From Escherichia coli (GTDB lineage: Bacteria > Pseudomonadota > Gammaproteobacteria > Enterobacterales > Enterobacteriaceae): 3,240 bases of DNA. The DNA is taken from assembly GCF_003334255.1 (NCBI RefSeq), contig NZ_QOWU01000124.1; one strand, written 5' to 3'. Position 1 is the stretch's first letter, and every line of letters begins with the position of its first letter. A model generated the notes under the pieces. The model saw only the letters and a list, made by a program, of their open reading frames with translations, was not told where the DNA came from and did no database searches. Made by a program: the position numbers and the translations under genes. This document shows positions 273-300 of this stretch, in pieces.

Positions 273-300
273 CATGCCCCGTACGGAAGTGCGGGGCATG
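273..300. terminator. Perfect hairpin, 12-bp stem (one G-U pair) with GGAA tetraloop; possible intrinsic terminator, more convincing on the minus strand
   Basis: catgccccgtac (273-284) pairs with gtgcggggcatg (289-300) around loop GGAA (285-288). On the plus strand the stem is followed by cttaacggg (no U-tract). On the minus strand it is followed by UUCUUUACUCC, so it fits better as a terminator for transcripts coming from the yfdC/argW side. It sits 5 nt after the stop of the 2-268 ORF. Confidence 0.35.

What the first reader, a model, noticed from the sequence alone, without database searches (positions are those of the whole stretch)
273..300. Perfect 12-bp GNRA-capped hairpin between the unknown ORF and the argW remnant
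The stem catgccccgtac/gtgcggggcatg with a GGAA loop is unusually long and GC-rich for the surrounding AT-rich DNA. It lacks a U-tract on the plus strand but has UUCUUUA on the minus strand. It could be the terminator of the yfdC/argW transcription unit, a bidirectional terminator also serving the convergent ORF, or a structured RNA or recombination-associated element at an island edge.
Basis: seen in the sequence. Interest (0 to 1): 0.3.

Follow-up and report, generated by a model that had tools for sequence, protein, structure and literature searches.

The report
Stx-type prophage late-gene end hairpin
The hairpin is real, but it is phage DNA: a conserved stem-loop just after the last, giant late gene of a Shiga-toxin-type prophage inserted in the argW tRNA gene, most likely an ordinary transcript-end or insulator structure.

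Summary
The stem-loop at 273-300 exists as described and is the strongest local fold in the window on both strands. "Perfect" holds only for plus-strand RNA, where one pair is G·U. On the minus strand that position is an A·C mismatch.

It is not host DNA. It lies 4 nt after the stop codon of a 2,794-aa LPD38/LPD5 (DarB-like) late gene of a short-tailed Stx-type (Sepvirinae) prophage. It is about 90 bp inside the phage from the 24-bp argW core of attR (391-414).

The 9-bp core GCCCCGTAC-NNNN-GTGCGGGGC follows this gene in Stx-type phages using wrbA, argW, sapB and other sites. Homology with those phages ends 0-5 nt after the 3' arm. The loop varies (GGAA, TGAA, AGAA, GGAG, TTTT), so GNRA is not conserved. 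The motif is about single copy per prophage, present in 423 of 5,426 E. coli genomes, and is not a repeat family.

There is no U-tract on the plus strand in any variant. The minus strand has a U-rich tail.

Best reading: a transcript-end stem-loop at the border of the late module. It would act as a 3' barrier or weak terminator for late mRNA and as a terminator against convergent read-in, here from yfdC and the orphaned argW promoter. This is ordinary and of low interest.

The parts
1..268 (+). 3' end, with stop TAA at 266-268, of the giant 2,794-aa LPD38/LPD5 'DarB-like' late gene of the prophage. It is the homologue of Sp5 ORF80/ECs1242, an essential late gene.
   Evidence: RefSeq annotation of the identical locus L001:11884-20268. 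96-99% protein identity to the Stx-phage homologues. ORF80 is essential and needed for tail assembly (PMC5155283).
262..272 (-). U-rich tail (5'-UUCUUUACUCC) that follows the hairpin when it is read on the minus strand. It overlaps the stop codon of the giant gene.
   Evidence: Sequence. U-rich in all variants. The repaired-stem variant L070 is flagged terminator-like on this strand.
273..300 (+). The 12-bp stem-loop. The conserved core is 276-297 (GCCCCGTAC GGAA GTGCGGGGC). The outer pairs CAT/ATG are specific to this argW-type lineage. Pair 282-291 is U·G on the plus strand and A·C on the minus strand.
301..390 (.). AT-rich arm of the phage attachment site (phage DNA). It contains a candidate Int arm-type site, TGTGTACATAA, at about 309-321.
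   Evidence: It is contiguous with the hairpin and the core in the packaged, circularly permuted phage Lyz12581Vzw (L007). Homology with wrbA-type phages stops before it.
391..414 (-). attR core: a 24-bp duplication equal to the first 24 nt of tRNA-Arg argW. This is the 'argW remnant'.
   Evidence: repeat_region annotation in LC645409. The rest of the tRNA is at the other junction. Intact argW lies next to int, 62 kb away in the source genome. ARAGORN finds no tRNA in the window.
415..489 (-). Host DNA between yfdC and argW: the yfdC 3' region and the native argW upstream/promoter region. It now points into the prophage towards the hairpin.
   Evidence: Present in all 5,426 E. coli genomes. 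Orientation follows from yfdC at 490-1422 (-). Promoter activity is inferred, not shown.

Best explanation
The hairpin is the transcript-end stem-loop of the late gene module of a short-tailed Stx-type (Sepvirinae) prophage. It sits 4 nt after the stop codon of the last conserved late gene, the 2,794-aa LPD38/LPD5 protein. It lies exactly at the border where the conserved late module meets the exchangeable integration/accessory module. I infer two roles. On the plus-strand late mRNA the very stable helix has no U-run. It therefore most likely acts as a barrier to 3'-to-5' exonucleases and at most a weak terminator, fixing and protecting the 3' end of the giant-gene message. RNA polymerase modified by the phage Q antiterminator would ignore a canonical terminator anyway. 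On the minus strand the same palindrome is weaker but is followed by a U-rich tail. There it can terminate convergent transcription and keep antisense transcripts out of the essential 8.4-kb gene. In this lysogen the incoming transcription would come from yfdC and from the argW promoter, which integration has separated from its tRNA. Shown here: position, phage origin, linkage to the giant gene, conservation of the stem with a free loop, single-copy status and thermodynamics. Inferred: every statement about RNA 3' ends and termination.
For: Stability and excess over chance. Phage origin and location inside attR. All 16 upstream prophage genes in the 20 kb shown are co-oriented with the giant gene, which is an essential late gene. 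Homology with phages that use other int/att modules ends at window 297-305, just after the 3' arm. At least five different downstream modules start 0-5 nt after GGGGC. The base of the stem is conserved while the loop varies (GGAA, TGAA, AGAA, GGAG, TTTT). U·G becomes U-A in two variants (L029 and L070), and the outer pairs switch between G·U and U-A. Every inspected copy lies directly after the giant gene, as do 49 of the 92 viral-contig pattern hits. In the sapB-site prophage, which has a perfect stem, the scan calls the hairpin terminator-like on the strand convergent with the giant gene. Distant homologues of the giant gene are also followed at once by a terminator. Vibrio phage 252E42.2 has a canonical bidirectional terminator starting 1 nt after the stop. 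Bcep22 gp75 has an annotated terminator 2 nt after the stop, a GC hairpin without a good U-run. In Sakai Sp5 a small plus-strand ORF and a canonical U-tract terminator lie 250-470 nt further downstream. That fits a hairpin that protects a 3' end rather than stopping all transcription.
Against: There are no transcript data. No U-tract follows the stem on the plus strand in any variant. The d'Aubenton-Carafa-type score, using a formula recalled from memory, is only marginal on the plus strand (about 0 to 24) and mostly negative on the minus strand. The scan tool does not flag this copy on either strand. Covariation is weak because the phages are 96-99% identical here (16 of 500 shuffles reach the observed pairing). 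One variant (L069) has lost the two top pairs. Two more distant relatives of the giant gene (L060 at 50% identity and Ralstonia phage PY045S1) have no hairpin directly after the stop. The stem could therefore be conserved by recent descent alone.
Confidence: 0.55

Rival explanations
1. It works essentially only on the minus strand, as an intrinsic terminator that stops leftward or convergent transcription from entering the giant gene. That transcription would be host read-in at argW or sapB, or int/accessory transcripts in other phages. The plus-strand hairpin would have no role of its own.
For: The U-rich tail is on the minus strand in every variant and is absent from the plus strand. The purine-rich spacer CAGAA(A/C)AT between the stop codon and the stem is conserved. 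The L070 variant passes the terminator consensus on that strand. In the phi191-type phage, int is transcribed towards the hairpin.
Against: In most variants the minus-strand stem carries an A·C mismatch where the plus strand has G·U. That makes it 5-8 kcal/mol weaker. Minus-strand d-scores are mostly negative. In Sakai-type phages the leftward unit has its own canonical terminator about 500 nt before the hairpin. In circular argW-type phage no phage gene reads leftward into it, because int points away.
Confidence: 0.17
2. It has no current function. It is a GC-rich palindrome inherited with the 3' end of a highly conserved gene, and its apparent conservation is only recent common descent.
For: The flanking gene is 96-99% identical among all carriers. 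Covariation is statistically weak. L069 tolerates loss of two pairs. More distant relatives lack it.
Against: In L029 the sequence downstream of the hairpin is heavily diverged, yet 8 contiguous Watson-Crick pairs remain. Changes concentrate in the loop, with five loop variants. Five or more independent module junctions all spare the complete 3' arm. Such a stem is rare by chance. Analogous terminators follow the gene in Vibrio and Burkholderia phages.
Confidence: 0.12
3. It is a DNA-level element: a hairpin or cruciform that acts as a recombination or breakage hotspot, or as a recognition hairpin for a single-strand HUH/Y1 transposase of the IS200/IS605 or REP type. That would explain why module junctions cluster at its 3' edge.
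For: Junctions of at least five modules lie 0-5 nt after the 3' arm. It is an imperfect palindrome with a T·G mismatch on one strand, as in IS200/IS605 ends. An IS200/IS605 subfamily in viral metagenomes has subterminal hairpins with the identical 8-bp stem, CCCCGTAC-TTYA-GTGCGGGG, flanking tnpA and tnpB.
Against: The stem identity was forced by the search pattern. That IS-type motif is absent from 5,426 E. coli genomes. The hairpin is single copy per prophage and always in the same place, so there is no sign of mobility. No Y1 transposase gene is nearby. Junction clustering is equally explained by selection to keep a functional end of the gene.
Confidence: 0.05
4. It is part of the integration machinery: an attP arm site, or a lambda sib/tI-like retroregulator of int.
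For: It lies only about 9 nt from the first candidate Int arm-type site and 90 bp from the core. It is at the prophage edge.
Against: It is present with unrelated int/att modules and ends where the att-specific sequence begins. In argW-type phage, int lies beyond attP and is transcribed away from it, so the hairpin is upstream of int, not downstream as sib is. A 12-bp helix is too short for a classical RNase III site (established knowledge).
Confidence: 0.02

Closest known systems
Rho-independent (intrinsic) terminators at the end of phage late operons, e.g. the annotated terminator after Bcep22 gp75 and the bidirectional terminator after the giant gene of Vibrio phage 252E42.2
   Same: A GC-rich stem with a 4-nt loop starting a few nt after the stop codon of the homologous giant DarB-like gene, at a point where transcription units converge or end.
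   Different: There is no U-tract on the sense strand in any E. coli variant. The U-rich run is on the opposite strand only. This copy is not flagged by the consensus scan.
3'-terminal or intercistronic mRNA-stabilising stem-loops that block PNPase and RNase II, as described for REP-stabilised messages and for the trimmed 3' ends of Rho-terminated transcripts. This comparison rests on established knowledge and was not tested here.
   Same: A very stable hairpin without a U-run directly after a coding region. In Sakai-type phages further plus-strand sequence and a canonical terminator lie downstream.
   Different: It is not a REP. It is single copy, has no REP consensus, and is found only in this phage lineage. 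The effect on RNA half-life is untested.
Lambda sib/tI retroregulator next to attP
   Same: A hairpin at the edge of attP in a lambdoid temperate phage that integration separates from int.
   Different: The topology is wrong. int is on the far side of attP and reads away from it. The helix is 12 bp rather than about two helical turns. It segregates with the late gene, not with int/att.
IS200/IS605 subterminal hairpins, such as the element in L083
   Same: The identical 8-bp stem, including the T·G wobble, and a tetraloop.
   Different: The loop differs (GGAA against TTYA). There is no transposase, no second end and no multiple copies. The IS-type motif is absent from E. coli. The stem identity was imposed by my search pattern.

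Membership tests
Intrinsic (Rho-independent) terminator | Stable GC-rich stem-loop downstream of a stop codon at the end of a transcription unit | tested here: met
   dG is -23.4 on the plus strand and -17.8 on the minus strand. The stem starts 4 nt after the stop of the last conserved late gene.
Intrinsic (Rho-independent) terminator | Run of U residues immediately 3' of the stem on the transcribed strand | tested here: not met
   On the plus strand there are 2-4 U in the first 8 nt in all eight variants. The copy is not flagged by the scan.
Intrinsic (Rho-independent) terminator, minus strand | Stem plus U-rich tail on the minus strand | tested here: inconclusive
   The tail UUCUUUAC has 5 U in 8, but the stem has an A·C mismatch and is not flagged in the window. 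d-scores are mostly negative. The perfect-stem variant L070 is flagged.
Intrinsic (Rho-independent) terminator | Transcript 3' ends map at the tail | not testable with these tools
   Term-seq data for strain Sakai exist (GEO accession as cited in PMC7547250). No table is held in the library.
REP / dispersed palindromic repeat family | Many copies per genome in different intergenic contexts | tested here: not met
   423 of 5,426 genomes carry it, with a median of 1 and a maximum of 3 places per genome. All inspected copies lie directly after the giant gene.
Lambda sib/tI-type retroregulator | Lies downstream of int, across attP, on the int-sense strand | tested here: not met
   In the circular phage the order is giant gene, hairpin, attP, then int, all on the plus strand. 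int is transcribed away from the hairpin.
attP arm / integrase-binding element | Co-varies with the int/att module | tested here: not met
   The same core is found in wrbA-, argW-, sapB- and other-site phages. Homology with them ends right after the stem.
GNRA-tetraloop RNA motif | GNRA loop conserved among homologues | tested here: not met
   The loops seen are GGAA, TGAA, AGAA, GGAG and TTTT.
IS200/IS605 or RAYT recognition hairpin | Cognate Y1 transposase and paired ends or multiple copies in the same genomes | tested here: not met
   There is no transposase in the 20 kb upstream or in the host flank. It is single copy. The IS-type motif is absent from E. coli.
Any curated RNA family (Rfam 15) | Match to a covariance model | tested here: not met
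   No match overlaps 273-300, even at E-values up to 10.

The most novel reading that the evidence does not exclude
In argW lysogens, integration leaves the native argW promoter and the first 24 nt of tRNA-Arg at attR, pointing into the prophage. The hairpin with its U-rich tail is the first stable structure downstream, about 115 nt away. A lysogen-specific chimeric RNA of about 150 nt could therefore be made constitutively and end at this hairpin. It would consist of a tRNA 5' fragment, the attP arm and the terminal stem-loop. It could have a role of its own, for example as antisense to the 3' end of late transcripts or as a marker of the integrated state that disappears on excision.
Probability: 0.08. 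Interest if true: 0.45.

Novelty: new member of a known kind. Interest (0 to 1): 0.13.

Why it matters
The importance is modest. The work assigns an unannotated, highly conserved structure to the end of the essential giant late gene of medically important Stx phages. It also marks precisely where the conserved late module ends and the exchangeable integration/accessory modules begin. That is useful for prophage boundary calling and for engineering these phages. In addition, argW-type phages split the tRNA gene from its promoter. This hairpin is then the first barrier against host transcription reading antisense into the prophage. None of this challenges current understanding.

Tried and rejected
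1. Repeat family: rejected. It is about single copy per prophage and always after the giant gene.

2. sib-like retroregulation of int: rejected on topology.

3. attP component: rejected by module comparison.

4. Known RNA family: none in Rfam, even at E-values up to 10.

5. GNRA-specific motif: rejected, because the loop varies.

6. Small ORF through the hairpin: read by eye from the sequences, with no translation run. The ATG-initiated frames in the window type and the Sakai type appear to differ in frame and length, so I do not consider it coding.

7. IS200/IS605 connection: an IS subfamily with the same stem exists in viral metagenomes. The identity was forced by the pattern, and that motif is absent from E. 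coli.

8. Covariation analysis: too little divergence to be decisive. Relatives at 37-50% protein identity no longer share the sequence.

9. Literature: no paper found describes a terminator or sRNA at this spot. The Sakai Term-seq table is not held.

11. The verdict would not change.

Full report
**Observation.** Window 273-300 is CATGCCCCGTAC GGAA GTGCGGGGCATG.
- As plus-strand RNA it forms 12 contiguous pairs closed by a 4-nt loop, dG -23.4 kcal/mol, z = -6.3 against shuffles.
- Pair 282-291 is U·G. The DNA palindrome is therefore 11/12, and the minus-strand RNA carries an A·C mismatch with dG -17.8.
- It is the strongest 40-nt local fold in the window on both strands. Only 5 of 500 dinucleotide shuffles of the window contain a comparable stem.
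- GC content is 68% in the hairpin against 31% in the following 90 bp.

**Context.** The window is E. coli chromosome, 100% identical to strain SCU-104.
- Positions 1-268 are the end of an 8,385-bp gene for a 2,794-aa LPD38/LPD5 domain protein. It is the last of 16 co-oriented prophage genes in the 20 kb upstream.
- Its Sp5 homologue, ORF80/ECs1242, is an essential late gene needed for tail assembly (PMC5155283). Distant homologues are annotated as DarB-like antirestriction proteins.
- The prophage is a short-tailed Stx-type phage (Sepvirinae) integrated in argW.
- Deposited records mark a 24-bp duplication that corresponds to window 391-414. This is the first 24 nt of tRNA-Arg argW on the minus strand.
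- The rest of the tRNA lies at the other junction next to int. In the source genome that is 62 kb away. ARAGORN finds no tRNA in the window.
- So the hairpin lies in phage DNA, about 90 bp inside attR. Host DNA begins at 391.

**Which module owns it.** In the packaged phage Lyz12581Vzw the order is giant gene, hairpin, attP, then int, all on one strand. In this phage type int is transcribed away from attP.
- Phages with other integration modules match the window only up to position 297-305. These include VT2-Sakai/933W, phi191 and the O104:H4 phage, POCJ13 and Stx1_2409.
- Alignment shows the 9-bp core GCCCCGTAC-NNNN-GTGCGGGGC in all of them. Unrelated sequence starts 0-5 nt after the 3' arm.
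- Among 56 IMG/VR loci and three further E. coli loci I found at least five different downstream modules, all starting at that point.
- The three outer pairs (CAT/ATG) that make the stem 12 bp are specific to this argW-type lineage. They arise from combining a CAT variant upstream with the ATG that begins the argW-type arm.

**Variation.** The six basal pairs GCCCCG/CGGGGC are invariant, except that L029 loses the outermost pair.
- The loop is GGAA, TGAA, AGAA, GGAG or TTTT.
- The U·G pair becomes U-A in L029 and in the sapB-site prophage L070, which has a perfect 11-bp stem.
- L069 has lost the two pairs nearest the loop.
- A formal count gives 85.8% of cells paired, against 37-50% for slid registers. 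Covariation is weak, with 16 of 500 shuffles reaching the observed pairing, because the carriers are 96-99% identical.
- The GNRA loop is not a conserved feature.

**Copy number.** The motif occurs in 423 of 5,426 complete E. coli genomes, with a median of one and at most three places per genome.
- All inspected copies are directly after the giant gene.
- Of 92 viral-contig loci matching the stem pattern, 49 have the giant-gene 3' end immediately upstream. Most of the remaining 43 are unrelated; one (L093) is a truncated Stx-type copy.
- It is not a repeat family. Rfam has no match.

**Strand question.** No variant has a U-run after the stem on the plus strand, while all have a U-rich tail on the minus strand.
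- The plus-strand stem is 5-8 kcal/mol more stable in most variants.
- A d'Aubenton-Carafa-type score, with the formula recalled from memory, is marginal on the plus strand and mostly negative on the minus strand.
- The consensus scan flags this copy on neither strand. It does flag the perfect-stem L070 variant on the strand convergent with the giant gene.
- In Sakai Sp5 a small plus-strand ORF and a canonical U-tract terminator lie 250-470 nt downstream. The leftward unit there has its own terminator.
- Together these points suggest that the hairpin does not stop all plus-strand transcription.

**Distant relatives.** The homologous giant gene of Vibrio phage 252E42.2 is followed, 1 nt after the stop, by a canonical bidirectional terminator. 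Bcep22 gp75 is followed, 2 nt after the stop, by an annotated terminator that is a GC hairpin with a poor U-run. Two other relatives have no hairpin at that spot. The position is thus often, but not always, a transcription-unit end.

**Mechanism (inferred).** I read the hairpin as the transcript-end stem-loop of the late module.
- On the plus strand it is a barrier to 3' exonucleases and at most a weak terminator. It would define and protect the 3' end of the giant-gene message.
- On the minus strand it is a moderate terminator that keeps convergent transcription out of the gene. In this lysogen that transcription comes from yfdC and from the argW promoter region (415-489), which integration has left pointing into the prophage.
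- Confidence is 0.55.
- Rivals: minus-strand-only terminator (0.17), no function (0.12), DNA-level recombination or HUH-transposase hairpin (0.05), integration component (0.02).

**Comparison with known systems.** It works like an end-of-operon terminator or stabiliser hairpin.
- It fails the U-tract criterion for a canonical intrinsic terminator on the sense strand.
- It fails the topology test for a lambda sib-like element.
- It fails the copy-number test for REP.
- It fails the co-variation test for an att site.
- An IS200/IS605 subfamily found in viral metagenomes has subterminal hairpins with the same 8-bp stem. That identity was imposed by my pattern, and the IS motif is absent from E. 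coli.

**Verdict.** This is a real, conserved but ordinary structure, and a new member of a known kind. Interest is 0.13. The decisive test is 3'-end mapping. Term-seq data for strain Sakai already exist, and the Sp5 copy of the core is at NC_002695.2 1304413-1304434.

Noticed in passing
window 391-489; L003 1-270; L072 16139-16213: The phage integrates in the 5' part of argW. The native upstream/promoter region and the first 24 nt of the tRNA stay at attR, pointing into the prophage. The intact tRNA at attL now has phage DNA upstream, so its expression in the lysogen must depend on a phage-supplied or read-through promoter.
   Followed up: partly
L083 3827-3846 and 5482-5501; also L074, L075, L080, L091, L100, L114, L122, L123, L145: A recurrent motif, CCCCGTACTT[TC]AGTGCGGGG, occurs in 13 unrelated viral metagenome contexts. 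In L083 two copies bracket an IS200-type tnpA (E = 1.7e-31) and a tnpB, so they are IS200/IS605 subterminal hairpins. They share the exact 8-bp stem, including the T·G wobble, with the Stx-phage hairpin. The motif is absent from 5,426 E. coli genomes.
   Followed up: partly
L001 8617-8638: A second GC-rich hairpin with a GNRA loop and no U-run, GACGGGGAC-GAAA-GTCCCCGTC, lies directly after the Hok/Gef toxin gene of the same prophage. It is the only other intergenic stem of this strength in the 20-kb late region.
   Followed up: no
window 309-321; L007 3309-3321, 3553-3565, 3566-3603: Repeated motifs TAATG[TC]GTACATA and TTG[AT]GTACAG[AG]ATA lie on both arms of the argW-type attP. They are candidate arm-type binding sites for the integrase. 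The first lies only about 9 nt after the hairpin.
   Followed up: no
window 2478-2515: A canonical bidirectional intrinsic terminator lies between the convergent genes mlaA and yfdF. It has an A-run, a 14-16-bp stem and a T-run, and is the second strongest local fold in the window.
   Followed up: no
window 1507-1529: A terminator-like hairpin with T-runs on both strands sits inside the divergent yfdC-mlaA intergenic region, where promoters rather than terminators would be expected.
   Followed up: no
L100 633-832: A HEARO (IscB-associated omega) RNA match above the Rfam gathering score (96.7 bits) occurs in one of the unrelated viral contigs pulled in by the pattern scan.
   Followed up: no
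L070 1-1533: A related prophage is inserted directly after sapB, inside the sapABCDF operon region. Its giant gene converges on sapAB, and the hairpin (perfect stem, TTTT loop) lies between them.
   Followed up: partly
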